Shown here: piece after piece, positions 2,860-24,920 of the stretch | Layout: each line of letters begins with the position of its first letter | How positions within the stretch are numbered: the first letter of the stretch is position 1 | From: a virus | Strand: one strand, 5' to 3' | DNA: 64,000 bases | Virus record (IMG/VR): IMGVR_UViG_3300013126_000010 | Coordinates: 120,708 to 184,707 of that record | The notes under the pieces: model-generated | What the model was told of the DNA's origin: nothing | The model's database searches: none | The model's input: the letters and a program-made list of their open reading frames with translations, nothing else | Translations under genes and position numbers: made by a program

Positions 2860-2949
2860 CAGGATGATATCATTTTGCGGGAACTATGGATTCAAACCAT
2901 ACAAACGCTTCCACTAGCGGTTCTCGATTAGATTGCAGTAATCATCCTA
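2860..2949 (-). ncRNA. cassette E1 enclosing a degenerate tRNA 3' portion
   Basis: TAGGATGAT/ATCATCCTG stem plus TTACTGCAA; loop holds CGC/GCG hairpin, TATGG-TTTGAAT-CCATA T-arm and GTTCCCGCA acceptor-like strand. Confidence 0.6.
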
Positions 2950-2956
2950 CAATTTC

Positions 2957-2985
2957 ATTATAGCATATAAAATGATTATATGCAA
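2957..2985 (-). promoter_or_regulatory. sigma70-type early promoter driving E1
   Basis: TTGCAT-17 nt-TATAAT; predicted +1 near 2950, at the first base of E1. Confidence 0.65.
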
Positions 2986-2992
2986 GTCTTAT

Positions 2993-3553
2993 TTAATCGA
3001 AAAAATTATACCAGACAGTTGGGCCTGATTCATCCAAAAATTTAGTGGAATATCCACTTCCAAATCTTTCAAATAGATAGCATTTATCGATATCCATTAA
3101 TGTTCCTGAATATGGTTCAATCTCTCCAGAAGATTTATTTAAAATAGAAACTTTCATTATATGATGATTAACGATTGATTTAATCAAACTCTCACCTTTA
3201 TTAAAAATTGCACCATCTGCGATAATAGGATAATCAGATTCTTCTTTTACTGAAAATATCAGCCATTTTATAGCAGATGTGTTTCTATATTCTGGAAATA
3301 CATAAATCATGTCAACATTATTATACATAATATGATTTATAGAAACGGATGATAATTTTATTAATCCTAATATAGTATTAGATTCTTTAACTAACAGATA
3401 GGTATTATTATTTTTATATAATGCAATATTATCATTTACTTCTACAATTTTAGATGATCCGACAAAATAATTATCATACACCCATTTATATGATATTTTA
3501 GAATCATCAAATGATCCAGCTGAAAATGATTCTATTATTTCGTTAAATCTCAT
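2993..3553 (-). CDS. hypothetical protein, possible GNAT-like fold
   Basis: VDMIYVFPEYRN resembles GNAT motif A; MRFNEIIE leader. Confidence 0.45.
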   Translation of the reverse strand: MRFNEIIESFSAGSFDDSKISYKWVYDNYFVGSSKIVEVNDNIALYKNNNTYLLVKESNTILGLIKLSSVSINHIMYNNVDMIYVFPEYRNTSAIKWLIFSVKEESDYPIIADGAIFNKGESLIKSIVNHHIMKVSILNKSSGEIEPYSGTLMDIDKCYLFERFGSGYSTKFLDESGPTVWYNFFD

Positions 3554-3590
3554 TAAATTATACCATAAATTGTATCATATTTATCACTAA

Positions 3591-3741
3591 AACTATTATC
3601 AAGGATACACTGGGTTTTTACCAATAACACTTGGTCAGTATGTGCATAACATCCCGAATAATCTAGTTTAGGGAACCACCCCGTCACGTTGATTACCGAT
3701 AAGCAGGAATCGTTCACCTGCATCGTATCCCGATAATAGTT
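3591..3741 (-). ncRNA. candidate structured ncRNA (~150 nt)
   Basis: closing helices AACTATTATC/GATAATAGTT and GGATAC/GTATCC around several internal hairpins; no ORF. Confidence 0.45.
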
Positions 3742-3789
3742 CTATATAATTTGGTGGATTGTTTTTTCGTTACTGTATAAGTACAATCC

Positions 3790-4080
3790 ACCTAAAACTT
3801 ATTTGCTATTACTTATGCAGTAATAGCAAATCCAGCATAAACGTCATCGTTTGCGTTTAATTTTTTGATTTTTACATCTTTCTCGATGATTCTAAATTAT
3901 TCTTTCTCAACCACGTCGAAAACCTTTCATCCCCATAATAAGAGCATTGTTGCTATAATTAGGATTGGGTTCAGGTGTTATCGCTAACAAGGGAGTTCAA
4001 TGCCCTTATTGTGGAGATGGGCGTATCGAAACGCCGTCCGCAATTTTTACTTAAATAATCTTTCAGCCATTTCTAGCAAC
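3790..4080 (-). ncRNA. ssrA: two-piece (circularly permuted) tmRNA
   Basis: acceptor piece ending GCGGAC-GGCGTTTCGATACGCC-CATCTCCA (4012) precedes an intervening segment and the coding piece starting GGGGATGAAAGGTTTTCGAC (3934); G3.U70; tag ORF 3854-3813 ANDDVYAGFAITA* with stop-codon hairpin; outer boundaries approximate. Confidence 0.85.
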
Positions 4081-4088
4081 GAATTCTT

Positions 4089-4289
4089 TTAATCATCATC
4101 TATTTCATCATCTGTGCTTGCACGAATAATCATAGTATCACATGAACATAATAATTCATATGCTTTCTCAAATGTCCCTTCCAGCCAAAATATTTTTTTG
4201 GAGCAAGTATGACATTCAAATACAACACATCCTGTAGTAATATCACATATATTTTTAAACTGTATTTTAAATGTTTCAAAATCAATCAT
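4089..4289 (-). CDS. hypothetical protein with Cys pairs
   Basis: CxxC-like motif (ECHTC). Confidence 0.5.
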   Translation of the reverse strand: MIDFETFKIQFKNICDITTGCVVFECHTCSKKIFWLEGTFEKAYELLCSCDTMIIRASTDDEIDDD

Positions 4290-4428
4290 ATCGTTATGTT
4301 TTTAATAATATTCTATTGTTGCATGATCGAGTCAGATCATCAACGAATTTATATAAGAATACTGTTACATCTGTGAACCAGATAATGACCATCATTTTTA
4401 TAATGATGACCACCAGTATTCTATAATT

Positions 4429-5082
4429 TTAATCTTTACCACTTAATGACAACAGTATTTGAAGAATGTTCAAGAACATATTCAAAATATCCAAATATAG
4501 TTGGACAGTTGCTCTAATGTAATTAGTTTCACCACCATTAATAATTTCACTGGTGTCATACAATATAAATCCAGAGAATATTACAACGGCGGCAAATGAT
4601 ACCATCAATTGTAATCCAGGAATATGAAATATAATCCCTGCAATACTGACCACGATTAGACCGATCAATGCTACGAATAATGTTCCACCTAAAAATCCAA
4701 AATCTTTCTTAGTGATGGTCACATAAGACGATAATGCGATGAATACAAGAGCAGTAAGACCGAATGCATATGCGATTAGTTCTGGACCATTAACAAACTG
4801 TTCAGTAACTTGATGCAGTACTGGTCCAAGTGTTAATCCTTCAAATCCAGTGAACAACAGTACACAAACCAACCCAAGTGATGATTCTGCAGTTGCCATT
4901 GTAAGAAATAACAATCCAATTGCTACTATCAATTGCACCCATATATTAATGGGTTCGATATTCATCAGTACTGCCACCCAAGCTGAAATGGCTGTGTTGA
5001 GTAATGTACCGGATAATAACCAGTATGTATTACGTAGTACTTTGTTCGTTTCGAAAGTTGAATCTATTGTTGTAGCTGCCAT
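4429..5082 (-). CDS. yccA: Bax inhibitor-1/YccA family membrane protein
   Basis: seven TM segments; VLRNTYWLL, GLTLGP, LYDTS and LYLDILNMF motifs. Confidence 0.9.
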   Translation of the reverse strand: MAATTIDSTFETNKVLRNTYWLLSGTLLNTAISAWVAVLMNIEPINIWVQLIVAIGLLFLTMATAESSLGLVCVLLFTGFEGLTLGPVLHQVTEQFVNGPELIAYAFGLTALVFIALSSYVTITKKDFGFLGGTLFVALIGLIVVSIAGIIFHIPGLQLMVSFAAVVIFSGFILYDTSEIINGGETNYIRATVQLYLDILNMFLNILQILLSLSGKD

Positions 5083-5220
5083 TTAAAATTCCTATATTGT
5101 TAAGATTTATTTATTATAACATGATGTAAAAATATCAGCAGATGATGACTAGTCATCTGTACCCATTGTACTGCACTCCTGGGTGGAAGTCATTTAGTCA
5201 CTGACATTAAATTTAGTATA

Positions 5221-5511
5221 TCATACTCCAAAGTATGTTGTCAACTCGTTTATCATTATAACTGGCTGTTCATTTTCAGTAAATATTTTAGGAATTACGT
5301 GCTGATACATATATACATCTTCTTGAATATTTGATAATTCGGTTGGATTATATATCCTATAAAGATCATCAGTAAAATTATTGGTGTGTTCATGATGATA
5401 CTCATAGAATTCATAAAAACTATTAATTATAGAATCCCCTTTCAAAATATCCATTAGTTTTTTACGAGAATTTACTGTTATTTCAGCAAGTCTCATATAC
5501 CCCATCCCCAT
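5221..5511 (-). CDS. hypothetical protein
   Basis: ORF on the coding strand. Confidence 0.5.
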   Translation of the reverse strand: MGMGYMRLAEITVNSRKKLMDILKGDSIINSFYEFYEYHHEHTNNFTDDLYRIYNPTELSNIQEDVYMYQHVIPKIFTENEQPVIMINELTTYFGV

Positions 5512-5678
5512 TTTTCTGAATGTTCTTTGACTTTTTTATTTGCCAGCATCATTTGATCAATCAATGATTGTAATTCTTCATCTGACATTTTTTTTAAGTT
5601 TGGATTTAATTTATTTCCATATACATCGAACATATCTTCAGTATTAACACTGTCATCATCATTTAATTCATTTATCAT
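5493..5678 (-). CDS. hypothetical protein
   Basis: small ORF in operon. Confidence 0.5.
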   Translation of the reverse strand: MINELNDDDSVNTEDMFDVYGNKLNPNLKKMSDEELQSLIDQMMLANKKVKEHSEKWGWGI

Positions 5679-5690
5679 GACAAATTTTCC

Positions 5691-5888
5691 TTATTTTCTA
5701 AATCGTGGCATGTTACCAATATAACCATCAGGAATAAAGCATTCAAGCATTGGGATAAGAGTACTTAGTTCAATTACTGGTGTTTTTTCTACTAATTTAT
5801 ATTCACCATCTATTAAAAGATAATATACATCATCAACATGATGATCCAATTGTGGTTGGAATATTGTTTTTAGGTCTGTTAACGTCAT
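5691..5888 (-). CDS. hypothetical protein
   Basis: small ORF in operon. Confidence 0.5.
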   Translation of the reverse strand: MTLTDLKTIFQPQLDHHVDDVYYLLIDGEYKLVEKTPVIELSTLIPMLECFIPDGYIGNMPRFRK

Positions 5889-5937
5889 TTTTATATAAAC
5901 CTGTTGTTCATATGTTATTTTCTAAATAGTGGCACGA

Positions 5938-6330
5938 TCAATAGATTTTATTCATTATTTCATTAAAGACATCATTGTCTGTATAAGTTTGATAATCTAC
6001 TGTAAAATCAAAAACATCGCTTATGTCGTTACCGAATACATTAATTAATGCAGTTCTCCACTCATTCATACAGGAATCATACTCAGATGGATCGATTTCA
6101 TATGAAGTATAACCAATACTATTAATCCCGTCAGCTGGTCTACATGAAAAATCATGAACTCCATATTTAGACTCTAGTTCATCAATAATTTCTTCACATT
6201 CTTCTGATGGTTCAAAGAAGAAATCTTCAAAAAACTCAGATTCGGCATTAAATAAAAAACCTTTCCAGGTGTGTTGTTTGGTTTTTTGATTGTAAAAGTT
6301 AAAATAGAATACTGAATTATGTGTTGGCAT
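5938..6330 (-). CDS. hypothetical acidic protein
   Basis: 130-aa ORF. Confidence 0.6.
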   Translation of the reverse strand: MPTHNSVFYFNFYNQKTKQHTWKGFLFNAESEFFEDFFFEPSEECEEIIDELESKYGVHDFSCRPADGINSIGYTSYEIDPSEYDSCMNEWRTALINVFGNDISDVFDFTVDYQTYTDNDVFNEIMNKIY

Positions 6331-6497
6331 GATATTTACCTAATTGATGTAAGTGTTATTTTATTTTACCATGGTTATCATCGTTTGGCAAGTCTTTTTT
6401 ATCTTTTTTACCCCAAATTCTATCCCAGTTGTCGTCGAATTTTTTCTTATCTACTGGTCTAGGCTTTGAACCTTTACCACCTTCCCATTGTGACATA

Positions 6498-6904: not shown

Positions 6905-7113
6905 TATACTAACTCACTTAATTTGTCAACAGCTGATTCAATATTGTCAATGGCTTCATCACAATTATTTAAATGATCTTTAACTTCATATAACAATTCA
7001 CGCAATTTATCACGTTCTTTTGACAATGATTCTTTGTGTTTTGTCAATTCTTTGATAGCTTTATCGATATTGTTTGTTTTTTTCATAATTATATACAGGT
7101 TGATGTTTTTCAC
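6904..7113 (-). CDS. small coiled-coil protein
   Basis: heptad-like composition. Confidence 0.5.
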   Translation of the reverse strand: MKNINLYIIMKKTNNIDKAIKELTKHKESLSKERDKLRELLYEVKDHLNNCDEAIDNIESAVDKLSELV

Positions 7114-7157
7114 ATTTCAGGTATGATTGTTTATTTGCGGTAATCAACCTAAATTAG

Positions 7158-7282
7158 CAGGATAGTTTTTATACGTTGCTCTACCAGTCTGAGCTAACTT
7201 CTCCATAGTATTTGGGAGAAGTATGGGATTTGAACCCATGACCAACGGCTTAACAGGCTATTTAATTGCTGTAACTATCCTA
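7158..7282 (-). ncRNA. cassette E2 enclosing circularly permuted tRNA-Asn(GUU)
   Basis: TAGGATAGTT/AACTATCCTG stem plus TTACAGCAA; 3' half 7258-7213, 9-nt linker, 5' half 7203-7174; halves rebuild GAGAAGT/ACTTCTC acceptor and ACGGC/GCCGT anticodon stem. Confidence 0.8.
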
Positions 7283-9094: not shown

Positions 9095-12000
9095 TTATTT
9101 CGCAACAGTCGGTGAGGTTGGGCTAGAAGGAACACTCGCACCAACTGCGTTTTTAGATTGAACTCTAAACATGTATGTTACATTGTTAGACAATCCTTTA
9201 ACAGTACCAGTTGACACGTTTGGTCCCAACGCAACAATAGTTGATGCATTGGTCCATCCTTTTCCAGCTGTACAGCTTGCGATCTTTGTTGGAGTGCTTG
9301 CAGTACATTTTTGTATTACAAATGTGGTATTGTTGTTTGATGTATCAGTCCATGTTACATCTACTGTATATGGACTACCAACAGTACCTGATACAGCACC
9401 ATTAATTATAGGAGTTGATGGTTTTGCCTTCATATTAACTACTGCAATATTACTAGCTGGACCAGCAGTATTACTTATCAATGGTGTTACTCTGAATGAA
9501 TATGTCACATTTTTAGCTAATGCCATCGTAGACACAAAATTCATGTTATTACCACTACCACTAAAAGTACCAGCTAATGTTGTCCAGTTATTAGTAGTCG
9601 ATGGTGAATATTCAACGGTATAACCAGTTTGCCCTGTTGACGTGTTAGTCCACGTTAAGGTAGTACCATTAACAGTCGTTCCAGATGCTGATGTAATAAC
9701 ACCTGACAAATCGGTTACTGCATTAAGAGTTGACCCAACAATATTTACTGAGTATGATACCGGTGCAGAACTTACACCTTTGCTATCGGTAACGGTTACA
9801 GTAAAGTTAAATGTCATCCCGTATACTGGAGTTCCACTTAAAACACCATTTGCAAATGTCACACCATATGGAACGGTACCTGTCAGATTCCATGTGTATG
9901 GACCTGTTCCACCAACAACACCAATGGTTTGGCTATATGCTGTACCAATTGCACCAGCTGGTAATGTAGCTGTAGTAATTGATGGAGTCAAGTTTTGACC
10001 AATTACTACGGTGTACGATTGTGATGCCACAGATGGCGTTGGATTTGCACTATCTGTTGCAACAATACTAAATGTATACGTTCCTGCAGTAGTAGGTGTG
10101 CCACTAATTACTCCATTGGCAACAGATAACCCTGGTGGAACTGTACCAGTAGTTGACCATGTATATGGTGTAATACCACCGCTTACACTAATTGGTTGAC
10201 TGTACGCTACATTAATATTACCGTTTGGTAACACTGTTGTCGCAATTACTGATTTAGTAATTACAATGGTAAACGCTCTTGCAGATGATTTAACATTTTT
10301 ACTATCAGTAGCAGTGACTGAGAAGTTAAATGTACCTGCTGCAGTAGGTGTTCCGCTAATAATACCATTAGTCAATGTCAACCCATTTGGCAATCCACCA
10401 GTCAATGTGAATGTATATGGACCAGTACCACCACCAGCTGTTACCGTTTGGTTGTAAGCATTACCCATATTACCATTTGGTAACGATGATGTCAATACAC
10501 TCGGAATCACACTTGATGTTCCAACAGTTAAGGTAGACTGAACTGTTGTTCTTTTCACTGGATTCGAATAATCAGAAACAGTTACACTAAATGAATATAT
10601 ACCAACAGCAGTAGGTGTACCACTTAACTTACCCGATGCATTCAATGTCATTCCTGGTGGCAATGCCCCTGCAGATACTGTGAATTTATAAGGAGCAGTA
10701 GGTGTTACAGTGTTAGTCAAACCACCATCAGCAGTGTAAGTTACTGGATTATATGCTACACCCAAAACACCATCAGCTAATGCTGGTGCAGTGATGTTTA
10801 ATGGCATAACCATTACCAATGGACGCATCATATCGTGCTCTTCATGTCCCAACAAGTGACAATGCCAGATATATTCCATACCATAATCAGTTAATGTATT
10901 CAACAATGTCATACCAGCACTATCAGTCATTGTAACCCCCAATGGTGATGCAGGATCTAATGGTCTAATAGAGTTTGGTAATTTCCATGGCAAATATGGT
11001 TGCACTGGTCTTACAGCAATGAATGTATCCAATGCTGGTGACAATCTAATTGTTTCTTTCATACCTTGTTCTTCTGGGTCAATCGGAAAAACAGTGCCAT
11101 CGATTGCAATACGACCAATTAATTGAACATTTACCAAATGGAAGTGCATATAATGTTGGTCAATACCTTGGTGATCAAGTCTCCAAATTTGGGTACCATC
11201 ACCCAATGTACCAACAATCGGATAATTACCAGTACCATCAACAAATGTTGGATCAACAATTTCTGTTGGTGGGTTGAAGAAGCTGTATGGATTAGCTACA
11301 CCAGCTTGTGGCCCAAGATTTGGCAAAGCACCACCCAACAAAGCGTTCATTCTACCATATTCCATGTCCCAGTTCTCGATAATAGCTTTATCTTGAATTG
11401 GTAATACTACATTAGTTGCACTCAACGTATTTGTATTTGGGTCCCATGGTTTAAATGAAAATGATGGGTCTGCCAAATTTGGTTGTTGTTCTGGAATTGT
11501 TTTACCATAAGCAGCACTATATGATGATGTTGGTACCAATGGTGCTTCTTGTGCCGTTTTGTATATTGATGGCCATGATGTTAACAATTTACCCATATTA
11601 AATGGAGCATCAGGTGTTCCATTAGTCATGCCAACCGTTTTAACAGCATCACAGTAATACAAACTCATCGTGTCAGTAATATTTGGATCGCATACATTGA
11701 CTTGCATAATAGTTCTAGTGTTAGGACCATATCCTGCCAACGTAGATGGTGCGCCACCTTGGAATGTATTATCTGGGTTACCTGCATAATAATCATATCG
11801 TTCATCAAAGAATGGGTATGGTGCAGGAGCATCATTATACAATATAACAGTTTTTCCTTTATATTTTGTAAAATCTACCAATGTGTCATGACGTTCCGCA
11901 GGTCCAACAACCAAACCATGTTCTTTTACACTTAGAGTAAAAATAACTCGACGTGATTGTTCATATGTTACTGGTTGAGTTGGTAATGTTTGTGGTAATG

Positions 12001-14374
12001 GTAACCATCCACCTTCATTTGCCAATATAGTAAATTGTGGACCAACACTTGCAGGATCAGGAGCACCACCATTGCGACCATCAGCAGGCCATGTTGCTGG
12101 ATATGCTGGATTCAACATTGCTGGTACCATTTTTACTTCTGCATTTGGTGCTGCCAGTGCAATGGCACCAGAACCAATACCACCATTAGAATCAGTAATA
12201 GTAACAGTAGGAATATCATCATACGCGGGTGATGCAGGTTGAGTAACAACCAAATCAACAATAGTCTGATCTAAAACTGCAGTTGCTACTGGAGTTACTG
12301 CACCAACCCCGTCAATAGATACTGTCGGTGCTGATGTATATCCGCGACCACCATTACTAACAGTGATTCCAGCGATATTTCCATTTGCATCCAATGTTAC
12401 AAACGCAGTTGCACCTGAACCACCACCACCTGTTATCGTAACAGTAGGTGTTGCCAAGTATGCAGGTGTATTAGTTAATGGATCTACTGTTATTGATGAT
12501 ACTATTCCTGAAACCACTGCAGATACTTGAGCAGGAGTACCAATAACGCCATTTTTCCAACCACCATTAAGGGTAACAATAGGATTTGTATATCCTGTTC
12601 CACCTTGAATCAATGATAATCCAATAGGGTCTGCAACATACCAGTTTAATGATAATGTGCGATCATCTGCACCATTCAATACTTTAAGTCTATGTGTATT
12701 AGGAGTTACAGATAGTTTTGGCCATGCTGTTCCATTAACAGTCGCACTATCCATAAATGATTCTGGAGTGCTAGTTGGATTAGTTGTACCCGGAACTTGT
12801 GGTGGCTCATTTGGTGTAGAACCATCTGGATTATACAACAAGTTTGCAATTGGACCAACAATCTGGGTTGTAATTGGAGGATAAATCCATGTATTGTAAT
12901 CCCAGCGACCAACATCATTAACACCACCTATTGACGTTGGGTGTTGGTTAGGCATATAAACATGTGGTAACCACAAATCACCATCCGTTGGGACTGCCGG
13001 TGTAGTTGCTGTAGCAGGATGTGAACCCCATGCCCATGTTGGATCTTGTTGAGCAATTCTAGTAGGATCTACCCATGTTTTATCTTGAATGATCAACGGG
13101 ATACCAATACCATCAGGCATTTTTGCTAATCCTGGGTTACCACCAGAATTGTTGGTACCATTAATCAAGTCATCTTCAACAGGATCTTTTAAAATATAAC
13201 CAGCTGCCATACCATCATACACATTCAATCTGGTAATACCATATGCATGGTCATGATACCACATGAATTTTGCAGACTGTTGGTTAGTGTAGTACATTGT
13301 GGTAGAACCTTGACCTGGATCATTGGTTGCACCAGGAACCGAACATACTAATTGTGCAGCACATACATCAATTGATTGACCTTGAGCATCGAACCACATA
13401 TCTGGAACAAATTTCAGACCAGTAGCACGTTTGTTAGGGTTAGTTTCACCAACTGCTGCGGTCCATTGATGCGGAGTACCATCAGAAATATAAGGTGTTG
13501 CACCACCATGTAAATGCACGGTAATTCTATTTTGAGAATACTGTGGACCAGCTCCCATAACAGTGTCATCAACCGGTAATGGTAAATTACCTGCCACACC
13601 AGTAGGCAAATAGTTGGTAAATTTCACCCTAACTGGTTTATTTTTATCAGCAATGATGTTTGGTCCCAAATAGTTTGGAGCATGTACAGCAAATACCTGA
13701 TTACCCGCTAAATCTTTAATTGGGGTGCTATCTGGATATGTTAATGCAACATGATCAGACACTTTACCTTGTGCTGTTAGCGTTGACATTACTGCAGGAG
13801 TTTCAATTTGAACATATCCACGCAACGTTGTTGGTGATAATGCGCTGTGCATTTTTTCAGTATATTGAACTACTGCAATCTCATAATAATCAGATGCATA
13901 TTCAACACCATCTTGTGGAACAGCTGGGGTTGCAGCACCACCATATGTTGTAGTGTCAGGCACAGCTACAACCAATTCCATGCCATTGGCATTAGCATAT
14001 CCTACTCGTGGCAAATCATCAATGAATTTTTTCAATCCACCAGAAACAATGGGTGCTCCTGTAAGAGGATCTAGTATATATGCTTTCGTTATAGGATCGG
14101 TTGCCAGTGTTGGTTGTGGTGAGTTTGCATAGTTCGGGGTGGTACTGAATTAATCAGGTTGTACTCCAAAAGTAAACTGATTCCCTGCACCAATACCAGA
14201 AGAGAATGTAGGAATATAGGCAGTAGGATAACATGGACCAACACCATATGATTTTTGACCCGGACAGGTTTGCCCATAGCCATTACCACTCCCCGGATTT
14301 TGAAGGACTGCAAATGATGATTGCGACATTGCGACCATCATTGCAGTAGTTAATAATTTATATTTTCGCATCAT
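9095..14374 (-). CDS. giant multicopper oxidase (MofA/OmpB-like) with four putative Ig repeats and FN3-like tail; interrupted by one in-frame TAA at 14150-14152
   Basis: all four Cu motifs VHLHGG, WYHDH, HYMHFH, WHCHLLGHEEHDMM; upstream 74-aa signal-peptide ORF is in frame and joined by an open 38-codon stretch (PD*FSTTPNYANSP). Confidence 0.85.
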
Positions 14375-14814: not shown

Positions 14815-14960
14815 CAGGATGTATTAATTTTTTGACAGTCGCGTATACCACTTTCGCCACTTACCAGCCACCCGGAGGCTTATGGTCATTAGATGGGACT
14901 TGAACCCACACGTCTTTCGACAACTGTTTTTGATAAATTAAATTTGCTGAAAACATCCTA
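14815..14960 (-). ncRNA. cassette E3 enclosing circularly permuted tRNA-Leu(CAA)-like gene
   Basis: TAGGATGT/ACATCCTG stem plus TTTCAGCAA; 3' half (AT CAA AA ACAGT, variable arm, T-arm, CCA) precedes Leu-type 5' half ending ACTGT; acceptor stem only partly complementary. Confidence 0.7.
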
Positions 14961-15980: not shown

Positions 15981-16511
15981 TTATTTAAACATAGCTAAAA
16001 TATCTTTCATAGCTTGAGTATTAGTGTTGCTGGATTGTCCAGCAAATACACCATATCTCATACCTTTATCATACAACCATTTATCATAATAGTCAATTAA
16101 TTTTCCATCCAGCCCTAACAGTTCATCACCATATTGAATTATTAAGTTATTGGGATGCATAAAATCCCTAACATTATATACATAATCAAATGATTCTTCA
16201 ATAGTCATTCCATGTTGTATACAAATCAATAATGCAACTGCTGTACTTCTACTAACTCCTGCATGACAATGAATTAATACTTTATCATTATCAGTGAAAT
16301 CTTTACTAAAGTTTAAGATATTTTGAATATGTTGAACTGATGGTGCAATAAACCCAGTAAACTCAATTGGTATATCATGAAAACGTTCTATATGATACGG
16401 GTTATCAGTATCAATATGTTGAGTATTTGGATCTATAACGCCGATTATTTTAGTACATAAATTGGCGCAACAAGATGCCTCATATATTCCAGTTATTTTC
16501 AATTCGAACAT
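15981..16511 (-). CDS. protein tyrosine/dual-specificity phosphatase
   Basis: HCHAGVSRS CX5R signature. Confidence 0.88.
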   Translation of the reverse strand: MFELKITGIYEASCCANLCTKIIGVIDPNTQHIDTDNPYHIERFHDIPIEFTGFIAPSVQHIQNILNFSKDFTDNDKVLIHCHAGVSRSTAVALLICIQHGMTIEESFDYVYNVRDFMHPNNLIIQYGDELLGLDGKLIDYYDKWLYDKGMRYGVFAGQSSNTNTQAMKDILAMFK

Positions 16512-16826: not shown

Positions 16827-17627
16827 TTACCTATTTTTTGAATTATATTTTCCACAACATCCTATACTACAAAATTTTCTATTTTTTCGAATATCGCGTG
16901 GACAAGCCTTGAATACAATTCCACAATTGGCGCACTCTACGTCTTTCCAATTTTTTCTTCTATCTATTATGACTTTTTCTTTAGGTTGTTTATCTTTTTT
17001 CCCAATAAACCACCCATTATCTAAATATGATTTCACCTCTTCGATTGGAATTATTTTAATAATTTCTCCCTGATGAATCCATGCCATTTGCTTACCATAA
17101 TTCCATGGTTTAATACCGTCTTGGTTTCTAATTTTATGACTATTACTAATTTTTAATTTTGATTCATCACTGTGATTCTTTCCAGTAAAAGTATCATATT
17201 TTATTTTACCATCTTCATGCAATTTAACAAATCGCTCTGAATTTCTTTTTTTATGGTTTTCAACACAATAAGGGTCATTCCAAAAAAACTCAGCTACTTT
17301 TTTTCCGTTTTCTTTTCGCTGTTCAACATCATAATTAGAATTTATATAATCAAATCCACCGTACCCGCCTCGTCTAATATTATATGTGTCAGATCGTGAT
17401 AAAAAATCCTCAGTTACTATTTCTTTTTCACGAGAAAACATAGCTGACGCATCATCAAAATACTCCAAAATATCTTTTGTGAAATTTTCAATTCCGTATT
17501 TTTGGATAGCTGCTTTAATTATTTTCCCAGACCCCATATAACCATCATCAAGATGTTTGGTTTTATGAACTCCGATATAAATTTTATTATTAATATTATT
17601 TGTTATTTTATAGATATAGTAATACAT
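16827..17627 (-). mobile_element. GIY-YIG homing endonuclease (free-standing)
   Basis: YYIYKITNNINNKIYIGVH; NUMOD3-like FTGKNHSDESK; C-terminal CxxC. Confidence 0.88.
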
Positions 17628-17661: not shown

Positions 17662-17733
17662 TATTCCCGACGAATCCTGCCATCGTACTGCCGCCTTGAA
17701 AGGGCGATGTTCTAACTTTTAAACTACGGGAAT
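17662..17733 (-). tRNA. tRNA-Glu(UUC), atypical T-arm, no encoded CCA
   Basis: ATTCCCG/CGGGAAT acceptor, TCGCC-CT TTC AA-GGCGG. Confidence 0.75.
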
Positions 17734-18719: not shown

Positions 18720-19344
18720 GGTGGTCCAGGTTGATAGAATCAAACTATATACTGTCCACCTAGTTCTAATATATGGTTTAGAAGACCATTACCGGGTAAG
18801 TGTGTTTAATTGTTTGTATATCTTGTTCCATTAATAATAGAGAGTATAGTAGTTTTACTAACATTGAATAATTTAGCAAGTTTCCGTGAACTAAATTGAT
18901 GATGATTTTCTCTAATGTATTTCACGTCGTCCTTTGTTAATTTTGATTGAATATGATCATGTCCTTTTTTCGGTTGTCTAAGTCCCAACTCAGCCGCATG
19001 TTTAAGTTGTTCTGACATTGTTGCCCATTCTAAATTACTGACGTTATTATTCAGTTTATTACCATCTATATGATTTACAGTAAGTTTATTTTCTGGATTA
19101 TCAATAAATGCTTTTGCAACTAATATATGGATCTTAAAACACTTCGCTGGACTATTTCTACCATTAAATCTAGTCACAAACACACAATAACCTTTCTGTG
19201 TCACACTATATTTTAATTCTTTATTAGTTCTTTTAGAATATATTTTACCAGTATTAGATACTTGAAAATAATCTTCATAACCAACTACATCTTTCCATAT
19301 TTCAACCATAAACACCTTTAATATTAATACTGAGCTAAACCTGT
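18720..19344 (-). tRNA. atypical tRNA-Arg(UCU)-like gene split in the D-region by an HNH ORF
   Basis: 5' piece ACAGGTT-TAGCTCAGT (19344-19329); 3' piece ATGGT-CT TCT AA-ACCAT, long variable region, T-arm, AACCTGG-ACCA. Confidence 0.5.
18806..19315 (-). mobile_element. NUMOD4-HNH homing endonuclease
   Basis: EIWKDVVGYEDYFQVSNTG NUMOD4; HILVAKAF..VNHIDGNKLNNNVSNLEW HNH. Confidence 0.9.
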
Positions 19345-21234: not shown

Positions 21235-21255
21235 GATATTACCTTTATAATTAAA

Positions 21256-21310
21256 CAGGATACTTTTTATTTTCGCCAATGAAATTTTTTAATTTGCTGA
21301 ATGTATCCTA
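21256..21310 (-). ncRNA. cassette E4 (short; small TTTC/GAAA hairpin cargo)
   Basis: TAGGATAC/GTATCCTG stem plus ATTCAGCAA; 4 nt downstream of tRNA-Ser CCA. Confidence 0.7.
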
Positions 21311-21314
21311 AAGT

Positions 21315-21407: not shown

Positions 21408-21453
21408 ATTATTCTATATTAACATTATTTTAATACTATGTCAAGTATAATTT

Positions 21454-21529
21454 TGGCAGGACTGACGGGTTTTGATCCCGCTACCTCTACATTGACAGTG
21501 TAGTGCTCTCCCGATTGAGCTACAGTCCT
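21454..21529 (-). tRNA. tRNA-Asp(GUC)
   Basis: AGGACTG/CAGTCCT-GCCA, CTACA-CT GTC AA-TGTAG. Confidence 0.9.
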
Positions 21530-21535
21530 AAAATT

Positions 21536-21620
21536 TGGTGGATTGTCTAAGAATCGAACTTAGCGAGTCAGTGACAGTGGTTCTACAGGCCACTCCGCCT
21601 CCATAACGGTTTACCAATCC
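21536..21620 (-). tRNA. tRNA-Tyr(GUA)
   Basis: GGATTG/CAATCC-ACCA, CT GTA GA loop, variable arm. Confidence 0.85.
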
Positions 21621-22147
21621 ATAAATATTTCTTTAACTTTTTCATCATCTATCCATTCTCCAACTGATATGTTAATTTGGTATTTTGATAGAATCGATTT
21701 TTCTTCTTCTCTCATATCATTAACTAGTTTATAATGTTCAACTTTAAACCGTCTAAATGGATCATATGTTTGATATGTTGCCAACCGTTTATTTAAATCT
21801 TGAGTTATTCCGATTTTGTACATATCTGGATATACTGGATTTGATATTAAATACAATATACCACATTTTAACTTAGGTTTAGATGATGTTTTTTCTTGCG
21901 TTTCTTGTCCAGTGGTTCGTGATAAACTTAATTTTAGTAACGATAACCCGGCTAATTTTTTATAATATCTAGCTTCTTTCTTTTTCTGTTTTGAAGCTTT
22001 TTCTGGGTATTGTTCACAATACGTGTCATAATATACGTCAAGTAAATCTATAGTCACCTCAAATGGTTCAGATATTGGAATTAGTCCTTTATCTATCATA
22101 CCATATATTATATTTTTTGTAATACTATTTCCGATTATTTCGTTCAT
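21611..22147 (-). CDS. GIY-YIG superfamily (T5orf172/MUG113-like) nuclease
   Basis: GILYLISNPVYPDMYKIGITQDLNKRL...E..I motif. Confidence 0.75.
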   Translation of the reverse strand: MNEIIGNSITKNIIYGMIDKGLIPISEPFEVTIDLLDVYYDTYCEQYPEKASKQKKKEARYYKKLAGLSLLKLSLSRTTGQETQEKTSSKPKLKCGILYLISNPVYPDMYKIGITQDLNKRLATYQTYDPFRRFKVEHYKLVNDMREEEKSILSKYQINISVGEWIDDEKVKEIFMDW

Positions 22148-22620
22148 AGTTGAATCATATCATAATAATTCAACTATGTCAACAATATTTTTTACAATTT
22201 TCCAAATTGTTAAAGAGCGTGGCCAATTTTTCTTTGGTCTTAAAACTGAAAAACCCAGTTTGATATTATCTCACTGGGTTCTCTGTTATTTTTTTTTGAA
22301 TCTTTGAAACTTATTATGTTTCTTTGTGATCCTTAACTGAGAAACCGAATTGTTCTGGGCGATAATCATAAAAACTCGGAACAAACGACACCGAAGATGA
22401 TTTATCATCCCATCTGCTAATCTCGATATGTTTAATGTGTGAAGTTTTCATAATATTTCAGTTATATAGTTTATTTATCTTTTTGTTTAAAAAATTAGTT
22501 TTAACATTTTGTATAGTTGTCAAGATTATCACTAATACATGCTTTGTGTCATTCGCAACACGATATTAGTTAATATTCAAAGTATATTAAGATACTTAAC
22601 AACTATACAAAATATTATTG

Positions 22621-22691
22621 TGGAGAATATCGGTACCGCCCCGATCATAGATGCAGTGCAAGTGCTTCCTGAGTGCCTATGCTCATTCCCC
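22621..22691 (-). tRNA. tRNA-Ala(UGC), short D-arm, atypical T-loop
   Basis: GGGGAAT/ATTCTCC with G3.U70, CT TGC AC loop. Confidence 0.72.
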
Positions 22692-22705
22692 ATAACAATA
22701 ATTTT

Positions 22706-22734
22706 ATTATAGCACGTTTTTTAAAGATGTGCAA
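22706..22734 (-). promoter_or_regulatory. sigma70-type early promoter
   Basis: TTGCAC-17 nt-TATAAT upstream of tRNA-Ala; similar motifs near 22950, 23158, 24940, 25440, 7505. Confidence 0.7.
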
Positions 22735-22995
22735 CTTTATTTATTATCAAAATCATAGTCTCCATTTCGGAGACTATGTTAATCAGTGTTCGTATTTCGT
22801 TTAATAACATTTTTTACTACAATTGCTGAATATGATTCCCAATTAGTTAGAATCTCATTCAATTTTTTTAATTTTTCAAATTTATCATCATCAAACATTT
22901 GTTTAATGTTATTATCTGATTTAAGTTCTGTGATTTTTTCCATATTTGTATAATAGCACATTTTCAAAAGATGTGCAACTTATTTATCATTTTAC

Positions 22996-23057
22996 CAGGA
23001 TAGCTTTTACGGTTTTGATTAGAAGTCAAATGTATTAAGCTTGCTGAAACTATCCTT
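22996..23057 (-). ncRNA. cassette E5 carrying a bare Arg(UCU) anticodon stem-loop
   Basis: AAGGATAG/CTATCCTG stem plus TTTCAGCAA; TTTGA-CT TCT AA-TCAAA at 23030-23014. Confidence 0.75.
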
Positions 23058-23096
23058 ATTCTTAACATCAAGGAGGTGATGTAATCTTTTATTTAA

Positions 23097-23151
23097 CAGG
23101 ATGTATTTATTTTCGCCAAATGAAATCTTTTAATTTGCTGTAAACATCCTA
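23097..23151 (-). ncRNA. cassette E6 (near-paralog of E4)
   Basis: TAGGATGT/ACATCCTG stem plus TTACAGCAA; TTTC-ATTTGGC-GAAA hairpin; begins at the predicted +1 of the promoter at 23158-23186. Confidence 0.75.
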
Positions 23152-23157
23152 AAATTT

Positions 23158-23186
23158 ATTATAGCACGTTTTTATAGATTGTGCAA
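23158..23186 (-). promoter_or_regulatory. sigma70-type early promoter driving E6/E5
   Basis: TTGCAC-17 nt-TATAAT. Confidence 0.7.
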
Positions 23187-23451
23187 CTATCTTTTCAAAA
23201 TATTGAAATATTCTTTACGTTCCATATCGAAACTGTTATATCTATACATTATATCATCATAAATGAATCCAAAAATGATTATTGTGAACACTACTGCGCT
23301 AATACAAATATAAGTCACTATTACATATAATAACCAAGTTGGATTATACCAATACAATAATCCTAATCCAACAAATATGGCAAATAAACCGAATATCGTA
23401 TGATAGTTATTATGATATAGCCATATGATAAAATTGGTATATTTTTTTAAT

Positions 23452-23508
23452 CTGGATCACGTTTTTCAAATTTACTGTTTGATTGTTTAGATTGCTGAAA
23501 TGATCCAA
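23452..23508 (-). ncRNA. cassette E7 carrying a bare Tyr(GUA)-like anticodon stem-loop
   Basis: TTGGATCA/TGATCCAG stem (compensatory changes) plus TTTCAGCAA; TCAAA-CA GTA AA-TTTGA. Confidence 0.72.
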
Positions 23509-23525
23509 TATATAACAACAAGAAC

Positions 23526-23602
23526 TGGCAGAGATATTCTGATTTGAACAGAAACTAGATCAGTCAAAGTGACCTGTGCTAACCGGATTACACTATATCT
23601 CA
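23526..23602 (-). tRNA. tRNA-Gln(UUG)
   Basis: GAGATA/TATCTC acceptor, GGTCA-CT TTG AC-TGATC, TTCAAAT T-loop, GCCA end. Confidence 0.85.
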
Positions 23603-23613
23603 ATTATTTTTTA

Positions 23614-23892
23614 TTATTTTTTAATAGCATGTTTAAATTTAAACATCCATTCATCATCTATCAATTCTAAGGAGCATTCGGTACATTTTGCAATAAAATC
23701 ATCACCAATGATTAGCGCGTCGAATGTTTCATATTTTTCAAAAAACTGTAAAGTAATTGGCATCACATTCCATTCCATTTTTGAAATGGTGTTGGTACCA
23801 TCATCACCTTGCTTTACTTCAATGTTGATAGAAGGTCTATTGGTTAATGTACCAATTACATATTCTTTTTCTAAGTTATATACTTTATACAT
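23614..23892 (-). CDS. hypothetical protein
   Basis: ORF in operon. Confidence 0.55.
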   Translation of the reverse strand: MYKVYNLEKEYVIGTLTNRPSINIEVKQGDDGTNTISKMEWNVMPITLQFFEKYETFDALIIGDDFIAKCTECSLELIDDEWMFKFKHAIKK

Positions 23893-23893
23893 T

Positions 23894-24160
23894 CTACTTT
23901 TTTCCTAATGTGGATAATAATTGTGTCTTTTCATTCTGGTATTCTTTATATAATTCTTTTATACATTCTACTAAAAAAATTTTTATCAGTATATACAATA
24001 AGATATAAATCACCAATCCTATTATAAGAGACAAACCGACAACAAGAACATAATTTCCAAAAATAAAAGACATTGATAGCCAAGTAAAGAATACAGTAAT
24101 TATCAATATTGATTTACTATATTTATTATAGACCCATTTTAAAAAATAAAAATATTTCAT
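23894..24160 (-). CDS. two-TM membrane protein (paralog of 24157-24423)
   Basis: YFLKW...two TM...YKEY pattern shared. Confidence 0.6.
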   Translation of the reverse strand: MKYFYFLKWVYNKYSKSILIITVFFTWLSMSFIFGNYVLVVGLSLIIGLVIYILLYILIKIFLVECIKELYKEYQNEKTQLLSTLGKK

Positions 24161-24423
24161 TTATTTTTTAAATCGTCAAATGTTTGTTGACATTCTTTTT
24201 TATATTCTTTATACATAGCTTGCATTGGTTCAATTATTCCATACTGTATAGCCCTGTATAAAAAGTAACAGACGGCGCAACCAAGCACTAACATTAGTAA
24301 TACAAATAAACCAGAAAATCCATATTTAACAAGAATGTATGTTATTGGGATTCCTGACACCCACATTAATGATTCCCGTTTATTTTTCATTACAGCCCAT
24401 TTAAGAAAATATAACAAATGCAT
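24157..24423 (-). CDS. two-TM membrane protein (paralog of 23894-24160)
   Basis: as above. Confidence 0.6.
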   Translation of the reverse strand: MHLLYFLKWAVMKNKRESLMWVSGIPITYILVKYGFSGLFVLLMLVLGCAVCYFLYRAIQYGIIEPMQAMYKEYKKECQQTFDDLKNK

Positions 24424-24430
24424 AATTACC

Positions 24431-24784
24431 TCAATATTTCAATGTCGACCAGAAAGCCAATTTCTCAAGATCTTTTTCAAATTCTGGGTATACTTCATTT
24501 AAGTGGTCATCACTAACTGACAAATAACCTTTTTTAATTTTTTCATCGATTAGTCTTTGCATATCATAATCATCATGAGATACTTTTGATTGGAATTTTT
24601 TACCACGTTTACCCCAGAATGTTACACATTTTGCACCGGTATATCGAACATATGTTGATAATGTCCACCATGGTTTAGAATTATCAACATTACTTGGATG
24701 TTCAAGAAATATCACACCCCAAACTTTATCAGAACCATCTTTAGTGGACCATCCAATAAATTTATAGTTATATTTTCCGCTCAT
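24431..24784 (-). CDS. WGR-domain-like protein
   Basis: SDKVWG...FWGKRG...KIKKGY pattern. Confidence 0.6.
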   Translation of the reverse strand: MSGKYNYKFIGWSTKDGSDKVWGVIFLEHPSNVDNSKPWWTLSTYVRYTGAKCVTFWGKRGKKFQSKVSHDDYDMQRLIDEKIKKGYLSVSDDHLNEVYPEFEKDLEKLAFWSTLKY

Positions 24785-24803
24785 TTTCGCATCTCATTAT
24801 TAA

Positions 24804-24920
24804 CAGGGTAGCAAATATGTTTTACCGCTAAACTACCATAGTGACCAACTCTATGGCTGGGATTCGAACCCAGGACTTTTCTTTACGATAGAAATTATTA
24901 AAATTGCTGAAACTACCCAA
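24804..24920 (-). ncRNA. cassette E8 enclosing circularly permuted tRNA-Thr(CGU)
   Basis: TTGGGTAG/CTACCCTG stem plus TTTCAGCAA; 3' part (anticodon arm TTTCT-AT CGT AA-AGAAA, T-arm CTGGG-TTCGAAT-CCCAG, CCATAGA) 24894-24849; 6-nt linker; 5' part ACTATGG-TA-GTTT-AGCGGTA-AAAC-A 24842-24818. Confidence 0.8.

What the first reader, a model, noticed from the sequence alone, without database searches (positions are those of the whole stretch)
2860..24920. Family of eight stem+CAGCAA RNA cassettes that wrap permuted tRNAs or bare anticodon loops
Seen: eight minus-strand elements (2860-2949, 7158-7282, 14815-14960, 21256-21310, 22996-23057, 23097-23151, 23452-23508, 24804-24920). Each has an 8-bp terminal helix with compensatory changes (TAGGATAG/CTATCCTG, TAGGATGT/ACATCCTG, TAGGATAC/GTATCCTG, TTGGATCA/TGATCCAG, TTGGGTAG/CTACCCTG). 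The helix is followed by an unpaired (T/A)T(T/A)C(A/T)GCAA and a YTAA-rich spacer. The cargo is tRNA-derived or anticodon-like: three circularly permuted tRNAs, two clear and two weaker anticodon-like hairpins, one 3' tRNA fragment. E1 and E6 begin at predicted sigma70 +1 positions, and E4 and E7 follow tRNA genes. Inference: a phage small-RNA system in which the flanks act like a permuted intron (a cleavage/ligation signal or small ribozyme) that circularises the cargo. Linker removal at the acceptor ends would then give mature tRNA, by analogy to permuted tRNAs of red algae and some archaea, but with no BHB motif here. The frame alone may match an already catalogued metagenomic Rfam motif (possibly freshwater-2, from memory only), but the permuted-tRNA cargo is the notable part.
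Basis: partly seen in the sequence, partly recalled or inferred. Interest (0 to 1): 0.93.

Follow-up and report, generated by a model that had tools for sequence, protein, structure and literature searches.

The report
Partner RNAs of phage Ro60-like protein
The eight elements are real small-RNA genes that share one conserved "handle" and carry tRNA pieces; they are most likely the partner RNAs of a Ro60-like ring protein encoded next to them in hundreds of phages, not a self-circularising tRNA cassette.

Summary
All eight minus-strand elements exist as described. I found one more in the interval (7094-7151) and two just upstream of the window. A covariance model finds them at E 6e-12 to 8.5e-5.

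The shared frame is an 8-bp closing helix, an unpaired N-U-N-C-A-G-C-A-A, an A-rich spacer and a 3' CCUGUU. It recurs in more than 300 elements on 124 IMG/VR loci with strong covariation.

The cargo is modular. It can be an anticodon-arm mimic, a D-arm-like hairpin, a permuted or direct tRNA body with a capped acceptor stem, a larger unknown fold, or nothing.

The frame travels with one gene, DUF2828+DUF7788. Its predicted fold is Ro60 (TROVE ring plus vWA). The gene is present in 59 of 89 framed loci against 2 of 93 chance loci. It is always on the same strand and usually under 100 nt downstream. The pairing also occurs in cultured Aeromonas, E. coli, Listeria, Campylobacter, Vibrio and Mycobacterium phages, and is absent from T4 and T5.

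Best reading: a Y-RNA-like family for a divergent Ro60 clade. The permuted-intron/circularisation idea is not supported. The handle also matches dictyostelid Class I RNAs feature by feature.

I found no Rfam family or paper for it. This scan has already noted the same family on other DNA (at least 209 genomes).

The parts
2860..2949 (-). E1: handle TAGGATGAT/ATCATCCTG with TACTGCAA. Cargo is a direct-order tRNA-like body (acceptor, D-like and T arms) without an anticodon arm. It starts about 7 nt after a TATAAT box.
   Evidence: (R1 31.8 bits, E 8.5e-5)
7094..7151 (-). E2b (new, not in the finding): handle AGGTTGAT/ATCAACCT with TACCGCAA and a short hairpin cargo, directly 3' of E2.
   Evidence: (R1 42.5 bits, E 2.4e-7)
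7158..7282 (-). E2: handle TAGGATAG/CTATCCTG with TTACAGCAA. Cargo is a permuted tRNA body in the order part of an Asn-GUU anticodon arm, T arm, acceptor stem closed by a 10-nt loop, D arm.
   Evidence: YrlA 39 bits, below gathering 69; z -2.98
14815..14960 (-). E3: handle TAGGATGT/ACATCCTG with TTTCAGCAA. The 121-nt cargo has a GAAA hairpin and a T-arm-like hairpin. It is not a clean permuted tRNA.
   Evidence: 5' part, 16.4 bits; no ARAGORN call
21256..21310 (-). E4: short member, cargo hairpin UUUC-AUUGGC-GAAA (D-loop-like). The cargo is identical in an IMG/VR phage (L030) and in Aeromonas phage APT65. E4 starts 4 nt after tRNA-Ser.
   Evidence: RF01414 32.1 bits; R1 61.9 bits
22996..23057 (-). 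E5: short member, cargo is an anticodon-arm mimic (5-bp stem, loop CUUCUAA, 'anticodon' UCU).
   Evidence: R1 57.9 bits
23097..23151 (-). E6: short member, cargo UUUC-AUUUGGC-GAAA. It starts 7 nt after an extended -10 promoter (TGCACA-16-TATAAT).
   Evidence: RF01414 24.9 bits; R1 58.3 bits
23452..23508 (-). E7: short member with handle TTGGATCA/TGATCCAG (compensated A-U to U-A). Cargo hairpin has loop CAGUAAA. It lies 17 nt after tRNA-Gln.
   Evidence: R1 51.8 bits
24804..24920 (-). E8: handle TTGGGTAG/CTACCCTG. Cargo is a permuted tRNA body in the order intact Thr-CGU anticodon arm, T arm, acceptor stem capped by UUGGUCA, D arm. The break is at position 26/27.
   Evidence: (YrlA 25.9 bits)

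Best explanation
The elements are genes for a family of small non-coding RNAs built from two modules.

Module 1 is a constant handle. The 5' and 3' ends pair in an 8-bp helix with conserved G-C pairs. An unpaired N-U-N-C-A-G-C-A-A follows on the 5' strand, an A-rich stretch precedes the 3' strand, and the RNA ends in CCUGUU.

Module 2 is interchangeable. It is usually a mimic of a tRNA part: an anticodon arm, a D arm, or a whole L-shaped body whose acceptor end is closed. That body is attached to the handle at position 26, 29 or 44, or at the acceptor end, which is why some look circularly permuted.

I infer that the handle is the binding site for the phage's Ro60-like protein (DUF2828+DUF7788, a HEAT-repeat ring plus a vWA/MIDAS domain). 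In this record that gene lies just upstream of the window, directly after an empty handle. On this reading the RNAs play the role that Y RNAs play for Ro60.

By analogy with Y RNA (a tether and gate for Ro60, with a tRNA-like domain in YrlA), the variable module would bring tRNA-binding factors to the ring or keep them away. Candidates are anticodon nucleases, tRNA repair or modification enzymes, and exoribonucleases. This would serve phage tRNA maintenance or counter-defence.

Shown: the family, its covariation, the tRNA-part cargo, the Ro60 fold of the protein, and the genomic coupling.
Inferred: physical binding, and the tether/decoy function.
For: RNA family:
- 315 unique framed elements lie on 124 IMG/VR loci. 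Conserved positions that my search did not impose include U at motif position 2 (92%), UU after CCUG (82-86%) and A-rich 3' spacers.
- The helix is 98.3% paired in 150 model hits, against 77% in shuffles and 33-47% when slid. There are 232 double changes.

Protein:
- The neighbouring protein hits Pfam DUF2828+DUF7788 and PHROG 850 'RNA-binding protein'.
- Its AlphaFold model (pLDDT 77, pTM 0.76) matches Ro60 structures over the whole length: 9kop/9l5y, 2i91, 1yvp, 2nvo. E is 1e-8 to 1e-6 and TM 0.5-0.6.
- The MIDAS motif DxSGS is invariant.

Coupling:
- The gene is present in 59/89 loci with 2 or more frames, against 2/93 loci where the pattern matched by chance.
- 185/185 element-gene pairs are on the same strand.
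- In 52/60 loci the nearest upstream element is within 100 nt of the gene.
- In this record, the empty handle at G000 116819-116861 is followed by an SD, an ATG and the gene's N-terminal piece.

Cultured phages:
- Frames lie beside the gene in Aeromonas APT65, E. coli EC6 (Felixounavirus), Listeria LMLPA3, Campylobacter CP8 and Mycobacterium MiniLon.
- Whole-record test: KVP40, EC6 and LMLPA3 have both gene and frames. T4 and T5 have neither, although T5 carries a large tRNA array (established knowledge; not checked here).
- In MAG contigs, 21/21 hits are on the gene's strand and upstream of the gene.

tRNA mimicry:
- 58 of 106 short-cargo hairpins carry the Y-U-NNN-R-N anticodon-loop signature, against about 10% expected.
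- 35/123 mid-size cargos give ARAGORN tRNA calls after rotation.
- YrlA sub-threshold hits come through the T-acceptor-D part.

Literature:
- Ro60 binds Y RNAs encoded next to it, and YrlA mimics tRNA (PMC4201824).
- A phage Ro60 binds neighbouring Y-like RNAs (PMC12135203).
- Bas63 gp130 is a Ro60-like protein next to the tRNA genes and counters the ppl defence (bioRxiv 10.1101/2024.10.10.617714).
Against: - No binding, expression or end-mapping data were available.
- The protein is not a sequence-level TROVE member. Pfam TROVE gives no hit.
- The RNAs do not reach the YrlA gathering score and lack its GNCGAA(N)G motif.
- In this record the Ro60-like gene is split into 163-aa and 356-aa open frames by a 1.1-kb insert. 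Its activity here is therefore uncertain.
- The elements are scattered over 29 kb, not all beside the gene.
- Model R1 finds no frames next to the divergent Clostridia-type homologues at 33-35% identity.
- Part of the helix covariation in my regex set was imposed by how I found the 3' arms. The model-based set reduces this bias but does not remove it.
Confidence: 0.75

Rival explanations
1. First reader's model. The flanks are a permuted intron-like cleavage/ligation signal or small ribozyme. It circularises the cargo, and removal of the acceptor linker then yields functional mature tRNAs.
For: - E2 and E8 contain every tRNA part in permuted order.
- A non-permuted version exists in which the two handle arms form an internal hairpin at the anticodon position of an otherwise normal tRNA: APT65 L218 966-1079 and L007. 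Handle and tRNA body are therefore circular permutations of one another.
Against: - Most members have no tRNA body to mature (132 short cargos; empty frames).
- Acceptor stems are capped by a loop, often the conserved UUGGUC, without CCA.
- After any ligation the handle would remain inside the anticodon stem or at position 26.
- There is no BHB motif, and no Rfam ribozyme hit even at E up to 10.
- No RtcB, Rnl1, Rnl2 or CCA enzyme is found in the held 184.7 kb. This is weak evidence, because the record is only about 52% complete.
- A helix of 8 bp plus 9 nt is very small for a catalytic core.
Confidence: 0.05
2. The frame is a generic processing or stability cassette of phage tRNA operons, for example an RNase E, P or Z punctuation mark or an end-protecting clamp. 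It only co-occurs with the Ro60-like gene because both sit in tRNA arrays.
For: - The elements are interleaved with tRNA genes.
- The flanks are conserved (UUUUA before the helix, UU after CCUG) and could be cleavage sites.
- One empty frame is a 5' leader of an mRNA.
Against: - T5, which carries a large tRNA array, and T4 have no frames and no gene.
- In 52/60 loci a frame lies within 100 nt upstream of the gene, always on its strand.
- In Aeromonas APT65, Campylobacter CP8 and Listeria LMLPA3 the frames abut the gene.
- The strictly conserved single-stranded motif points to a specific reader, not to a general nuclease.
Confidence: 0.12
3. The RNAs act on their own, without the ring protein, as tRNA-part decoys or sponges for host anticodon nucleases or synthetases. 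The handle only provides nuclease resistance.
For: - Anticodon-loop signatures are enriched about six-fold over expectation. The mimicked anticodons include UUU, UCU, GUA and GUU.
- By general knowledge, tRNAs with such anticodons are targets of known anticodon nucleases.
Against: This does not explain the sequence-conserved handle motif, nor its coupling to one protein family across phages of four bacterial phyla. It is compatible with the main reading as the function of the variable module.
Confidence: 0.08

Closest known systems
Ro60 (Rsr) with Y RNAs, especially bacterial and mycobacteriophage YrlA (Rfam RF02553; Chen et al. 2014, PMC4201824) and Thermus phage phiLo Ro60 with Yrl1/Yrl2 (PMC12135203)
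   Same: - A ring-plus-vWA protein is encoded next to its small RNAs.
- The RNA ends pair in a closing helix, with a conserved motif just 3' of the 5' strand.
- The effector module can be a tRNA-like T-acceptor-D body with a closed acceptor stem.
- Several different RNAs occur per genome.
   Different: - The protein belongs to another sequence family (DUF2828/DUF7788, 12-16% identity to solved Ro60).
- The handle motif is N-U-N-C-A-G-C-A-A with 3' CCUGUU, not GNCGAA(N)G.
- The RNAs score far below the YrlA gathering score.
- Cargo is far more modular (bare anticodon arms, D arms, several permutation points, empty handles), with up to ten or more copies per genome spread through tRNA arrays.
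Dictyostelid Class I RNAs (Rfam RF01414; Kjellin et al. 2021, PMC7919456)
   Same: - A short covarying stem joins the 5' and 3' ends.
- The RNA starts with (A/U)AG.
- An 11-nt motif lies next to the 5' strand, with the same invariant positions (T3, C6, C9, A10, A11 of CCUUACAGCAA).
- The RNA ends in CUGU, with the C paired to the conserved 5' G.
- Length is about 60 nt, with an A/U-rich variable middle and many clustered genes.
   Different: - The hits are below the gathering score: 32.1, 24.9, 28.4 and 23.2 bits against 41.5.
- Class I RNAs are eukaryotic genes with a DUSE promoter and are reported as unique to Dictyostelia.
- Their known direct binder is the RRM protein CIBP/Rnp1A.
- No tRNA-like cargo has been described for them.
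- I could not test whether dictyostelids have a DUF2828 protein.
Circularly permuted tRNA genes of Cyanidioschyzon merolae and some archaea
   Same: In E2 and E8 the 3' part of the tRNA precedes the 5' part, and the transcript ends pair with each other.
   Different: - There is no bulge-helix-bulge motif, and no splicing endonuclease or ligase context.
- The acceptor end is capped by a loop that is often conserved.
- The break points lie at 26/27, 29/30 or near 44.
- The same flanks enclose non-tRNA cargo.
Phage T4 stable RNAs species 1 and 2 (rnaC, rnaD) in the tRNA cluster
   Same: They are small stable non-tRNA RNAs of unknown function encoded among phage tRNA genes (from general knowledge).
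   Different: T4 has neither the handle nor the Ro60-like gene.

Membership tests
Ro60 / Y RNA ribonucleoprotein (YrlA type) | RNA genes encoded next to a Ro60-type protein gene | tested here: met
   59/89 framed loci carry the gene against 2/93 control loci. All pairs are on the same strand and 52/60 lie within 100 nt. In this record an empty handle abuts the gene. The pairing also occurs in cultured phages.
Ro60 / Y RNA ribonucleoprotein (YrlA type) | Protein has the Ro60 architecture (HEAT-repeat ring plus vWA with MIDAS) | tested here: met
   Foldseek: the top 13 hits are all Ro60/TROVE structures, at E 1e-8 to 6e-5 over about 510-540 columns. DxSGS is invariant.
Ro60 / Y RNA ribonucleoprotein (YrlA type) | Protein is a member of Pfam TROVE (PF05731) | tested here: not met
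   Pfam finds only DUF2828 and DUF7788. There is no TROVE match in the record and no PDB sequence hit.
Ro60 / Y RNA ribonucleoprotein (YrlA type) | RNA reaches the Rfam YrlA gathering score and carries the GNCGAA(N)G Ro-binding motif | tested here: not met
   Best scores are 39 and 25.9 bits in the window and 48.9 bits in L018, against a gathering score of 69. Only the tRNA-like part aligns. The handle motif is CAGCAA.
Ro60 / Y RNA ribonucleoprotein (YrlA type) | RNA physically bound by the protein | not testable with these tools
   No protein-RNA docking tool or RIP data were available.
Dictyostelid Class I RNA (RF01414) | Short 5'/3' closing stem with compensatory changes, (A/U)AG start, CUGU end with the C paired to the 5' G | tested here: met
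   Position profile of 315 elements; pair counts; description in PMC7919456.
Dictyostelid Class I RNA (RF01414) | 11-nt motif next to the 5' strand with invariant T3, C6, C9, A10, A11 | tested here: met
   Phage profile: T 92% at the corresponding position. C, G, C, A, A were fixed by the search pattern, but they recur in the model hits from cultured phages.
Dictyostelid Class I RNA (RF01414) | Score at or above the Rfam gathering score (41.5 bits) | tested here: not met
   32.1 and 24.9 bits (E4, E6); 28.4 and 23.2 bits in APT65; no hits at E up to 0.05 in five other loci.
Dictyostelid Class I RNA (RF01414) | Eukaryotic gene with a DUSE promoter, restricted to Dictyostelia | tested here: not met
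   This is a phage record with bacterial-type -10/-35 boxes.
Permuted tRNA gene matured through a circular intermediate | 3' half precedes 5' half, with all tRNA parts present | tested here: met
   Met for E2 and E8 only. Not met for the other seven in-window members.
Permuted tRNA gene matured through a circular intermediate | Bulge-helix-bulge motif formed by the transcript ends | tested here: not met
   The ends form a continuous 8-bp helix with a one-sided 9-nt motif.
Permuted tRNA gene matured through a circular intermediate | Removable linker at the acceptor ends giving a chargeable 3' end | tested here: inconclusive
   The linker is a hairpin loop, conserved as UU(G/A)GUC in 13 of 123 mid-size cargos, with no encoded CCA. 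Processing cannot be tested here.
Self-cleaving ribozyme | Match to a known ribozyme family | tested here: not met
   No ribozyme hit in Rfam 15, even at E up to 10, over 26 kb.

The most novel reading that the evidence does not exclude
The phage CAGCAA-handle RNAs and the Class I RNAs of dictyostelid amoebae are one RNA family read by the same kind of protein, a DUF2828-type Ro60 relative. The developmental Class I RNAs, thought unique to Dictyostelia, would then be the eukaryotic branch of a Ro-like RNP that phages use with tRNA-mimic modules. Candidate uses are to tether or decoy tRNA-targeting enzymes such as anticodon nucleases. DDB_G0281243 is a protein of unknown function pulled down with Class I RNA DdR-21. 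It would be the obvious candidate partner.
Probability: 0.2. Interest if true: 0.92.

Novelty: new variant of a known kind. Interest (0 to 1): 0.8.

Why it matters
- It gives a likely RNA partner and a testable role to a very large protein family of unknown function. DUF2828/DUF7788 has more than 8000 clusters at 90% identity and occurs in 709 cultured phage records.
- It explains unannotated 'spacers' in the tRNA arrays of well-studied phages, including Felix O1-like, P100-like Listeria, Campylobacter and KVP40 phages.
- It shows a modular way of displaying tRNA parts on a protein-binding handle. This bears on how phages deal with tRNA-directed defence and repair.
- It accounts for apparent 'permuted tRNAs' without invoking a new splicing pathway.
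- The feature-by-feature match to dictyostelid Class I RNAs turns a 20-year-old open question, what those RNAs bind and do, into a direct experiment.

Tried and rejected
- Megablast of 8 kb of the window against cultured phages: no match.
- TROVE, RtcB, Rnl2, Rnl1 and CCA-enzyme Pfam searches of the record: none found. The Rnl1 control rang nowhere, so that result is uninformative.
- I checked whether the permuted tmRNA at 3813-4070 is wrapped in the same frame: it is not.
- Sequence search of the protein against PDB: nothing. The fold search was needed.
- Search for longer (fused or eukaryotic-size) relatives: none scored.
- ESM Atlas look-up: only phage DUF2828 clusters.
- Search of the Class I RNA paper's supplements for DDB_G0281243, DUF2828, vWA and TROVE: nothing.
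- RNAalifold on the 163-nt cargo class recovered only the closing helix.
- E5's anticodon-arm mimic is not a copy of the phage's own tRNA-Arg(UCU) arm.
- Single-sequence folding z-scores are modest, -1 to -3. The case rests on comparative evidence.

Full report
**What is in the sequence.** The window is the last 64 kb of a 184.7-kb IMG/VR virus record that CheckV rates about 52% complete. The finding's interval is a minus-strand region with 13 ARAGORN tRNA genes, one more tRNA seen only by Rfam, and a permuted two-piece tmRNA.

All eight elements are present as described. Each has a closing helix of about 8 bp: (U/A)(A/U)GG(A/G)UNN pairs with NNA(U/C)CC(U/A)G. An unpaired (U/A)U(U/A)C(A/U)GCAA follows, then an A/U-rich spacer with YUAA, then the cargo.

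A regex scan of the whole record found the eight plus two more upstream of the window. One, at G000 117379-117543, has a 165-nt cargo. The other, at G000 116819-116861, has no cargo at all. It sits between a consensus promoter and the SD/ATG of a gene. A ninth in-window copy lies at 7094-7151, directly after E2.

**Is it more than chance?** Two pattern scans of IMG/VR, filtered for a complementary 3' arm, gave 315 unique framed elements on 124 loci. Several positions that the search did not fix are strongly conserved:
- U at the second motif position (92%).
- A before GG (87%) and UUUU upstream.
- UU after CCUG (82-86%).
- An A-rich stretch before the 3' arm.

I built covariance model R1 from 61 short members. 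It recovers the window's short elements at E 6e-12 to 2e-9, and E2b and E1 at 2e-7 and 8.5e-5, in the whole record. In 150 model hits from other phages the helix is 98.3% paired. Column shuffles give 77% and slid partners give 33-47%. There are 232 cells changed on both sides, and the two inner pairs use all four Watson-Crick types. My regex set imposed pairing on six positions. The model-based alignment and the slid controls are the fairer measure.

**What the cargo is.**
- Short members (132 unique): 106 have a 5-bp stem with a 7-nt loop. Of these, 58 carry the anticodon-loop signature Y-U-NNN-R-N, against about 10% expected from shuffled loops. The commonest triplets are UGU, UUU, UCU, GGA, GUA, UGA and GUU.
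- D-arm-like hairpins: other short members look like GCUA..UUGG..UAGC or UUUC-AUUGGC-GAAA. The second form is E4's cargo, and it is identical in an unrelated IMG/VR phage and in Aeromonas phage APT65.
- Mid-size members: these are tRNA bodies. The commonest 117-nt type reads handle, anticodon arm, T arm, acceptor hairpin capped by UUGGUC, D arm, handle; E8 is of this type. Others break after the anticodon arm or inside the anticodon stem (E2). Two carry a direct-order tRNA with a 3-bp acceptor stem.
- Larger classes: cargos of about 163 and about 225-255 nt are conserved but match nothing in Rfam.

**The key neighbour.** A blastn of E6 against cultured phages hit Aeromonas phage APT65. There, four tandem frames lie directly before gene APT65_00123. 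That protein is DUF2828 (PF11443) plus DUF7788 (PF25043), and PHROG 850 'RNA-binding protein'.

Its homologue in this record starts right after the empty handle. It is split into a 163-aa N-terminal frame and a 356-aa C-terminal frame by a 1.1-kb insert that holds an opposite-strand 310-aa ORF.

An AlphaFold model built from a 20-sequence alignment (pLDDT 77, pTM 0.76) matches Ro60 structures over its full length. The hits include the Thermus phage phiLo Ro60, Xenopus Ro60 with Y RNA or misfolded RNA, human Ro60 and Deinococcus Rsr, at E 1e-8 to 6e-5. Below these, only isolated vWA domains match. The MIDAS DxSGS motif is invariant. By sequence the protein is not a Pfam TROVE member.

**Coupling of RNA and protein.**
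- Among loci fetched only by the RNA pattern, 59 of 89 with two or more frames hold the gene within the fetched stretch. Among loci where the pattern matched by chance, 2 of 93 do.
- All 185 element-gene pairs are co-oriented.
- In 52 of 60 loci a frame lies within 100 nt upstream of the gene.
- Model R1 finds frames beside the gene in Listeria phage LMLPA3, Campylobacter phage CP8, Mycobacterium phage MiniLon, E. coli phage EC6 and APT65. EC6 has four, with the handle AGAAGACCNN-UUACAGCAA...NNGGUCUGG.
- In whole-record tests, KVP40, EC6 and LMLPA3 have both the gene and frames. T4 and T5 have neither, although T5 carries a large tRNA array. The frame is therefore not mere tRNA-operon punctuation.
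- In MAG contigs that carry the gene, all 21 model hits lie on the gene's strand and upstream of the gene. The distant Clostridia-type homologues gave no hit.
- The gene occurs in 709 cultured phage records.

**Interpretation.** Ro60 proteins bind Y RNAs that are encoded next to them. Bacterial YrlA has a closing helix that binds Ro60 and a tRNA-like T-acceptor-D domain (PMC4201824). A phage Ro60 binds two neighbouring Y-like RNAs and can assemble with host PNPase (PMC12135203).

The present family has the same architecture and the same gene neighbourhood. It differs in its handle motif and in belonging to a different sequence family of ring protein. I therefore read the elements as the Y-RNA equivalents of the DUF2828-type Ro60 clade. 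The 'permutation' is simply the result of attaching a tRNA body to a terminal handle.

A non-permuted arrangement also exists. In it the handle arms form an internal hairpin at the anticodon position of a normal tRNA, as in APT65 L218 966-1079 and in L007. This fits a modular design.

The function is inferred. The variable modules would present tRNA parts to tRNA-binding factors, as tether, gate or decoy. A preprint reports that the Ro60-like gp130 of the E. coli phage Bas63 counters the ppl defence system. Its authors guess that some neighbouring 'tRNA genes' are Y RNAs. RtcB lies near the gene in the Listeria phage.

A circularising permuted intron is unlikely. Most members have nothing to mature, and the acceptor caps can be conserved and lack CCA. 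There is no BHB motif and no ribozyme match. No ligase or CCA enzyme is found in the half-genome held. The idea cannot be excluded without RNA data, and none could be obtained.

**Class I RNAs.** The only other Rfam family that the short members approach is Dicty_Class_I_RNA: 32.1 and 24.9 bits in the window and 28.4 and 23.2 bits in APT65, against a gathering score of 41.5. The published description matches point by point:
- a short covarying end-to-end stem;
- an AAG start;
- an 11-nt motif CCUUACAGCAA with invariant T3, C6, C9, A10 and A11;
- a CUGU end whose C pairs with the 5' G;
- a length of about 60 nt (PMC7919456).

One of four proteins pulled down with a Class I RNA, DDB_G0281243, has no known function. 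I could not test whether it is a DUF2828 protein. Common descent, or a shared reader, remains a hypothesis.

**Novelty.** I found no Rfam family and no paper describing this RNA family. After reaching these conclusions I consulted the scan's notebook. The same family has been noted on other DNA in at least 209 genomes, including this record, with the same reading. I treat those notes as leads only.

Noticed in passing
window 3813-4070 (-): Circularly permuted two-piece tmRNA (RF04321, 104.7 bits) in a phage, with predicted tag ANDDVYAGFAITA. It is not wrapped in the CAGCAA frame.
   Followed up: partly
G000 114281-116790 (-), about 3.9-6.4 kb upstream of the window (loci L219, L220): The Ro60-like gene of this record is split by a 1.1-kb insert into a 163-aa N-piece and a 356-aa C-piece. 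The insert carries an opposite-strand 310-aa ORF (weak DUF7487). This may be a free-standing mobile gene insertion. Both pieces keep open frames.
   Followed up: partly
IMG/VR loci, e.g. L136 2848-3013 and 3022-3250; G000 117379-117543: Two larger conserved cargo classes sit in the same frame directly upstream of the Ro60-like gene in many phages. One is about 163 nt with CUGGAG...UGAAGG; the other is about 225-255 nt. Neither has an Rfam match, and their folds are unknown.
   Followed up: partly
L218 966-1079 (Aeromonas phage APT65) and L007 about 3270-3400: These are tRNA genes with a 46-nt insert at the anticodon loop. The insert is the handle in internal form: 3' arm, short loop, 5' arm, CUGCA/CCGCAA motif. 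It is the circular permutation of the framed tRNA bodies.
   Followed up: partly
window 17662-17733 (-): A tRNA found by Rfam (43.3 bits) but not by ARAGORN, next to a SegE-like GIY-YIG/NUMOD3 ORF (16827-17627).
   Followed up: no
window 22712-22732, 22956-22976, 23158-23185: A repeated cassette in which a 9-bp hairpin (GCACNTNTTT...) overlaps a TGCACA-16-TATAAT extended -10 promoter. It resembles the promoter/stem-loop cassettes of T4-type phages.
   Followed up: no
window 15981-16511, 18806-19315, 21611-22147 (-): Three genes lie inside the tRNA/small-RNA region: a dual-specificity phosphatase-like gene, an HNH/NUMOD4 homing endonuclease and a T5orf172 (GIY-YIG-like) gene.
   Followed up: no
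window 4429-5082 (-) and 9095-14035 (-): A full-length Bax1-I (BI-1/YccA-type) membrane protein (E 2.5e-53), and a 1646-aa protein with He_PIG Ig domains, fn3 and multicopper-oxidase-like stretches.
   Followed up: no
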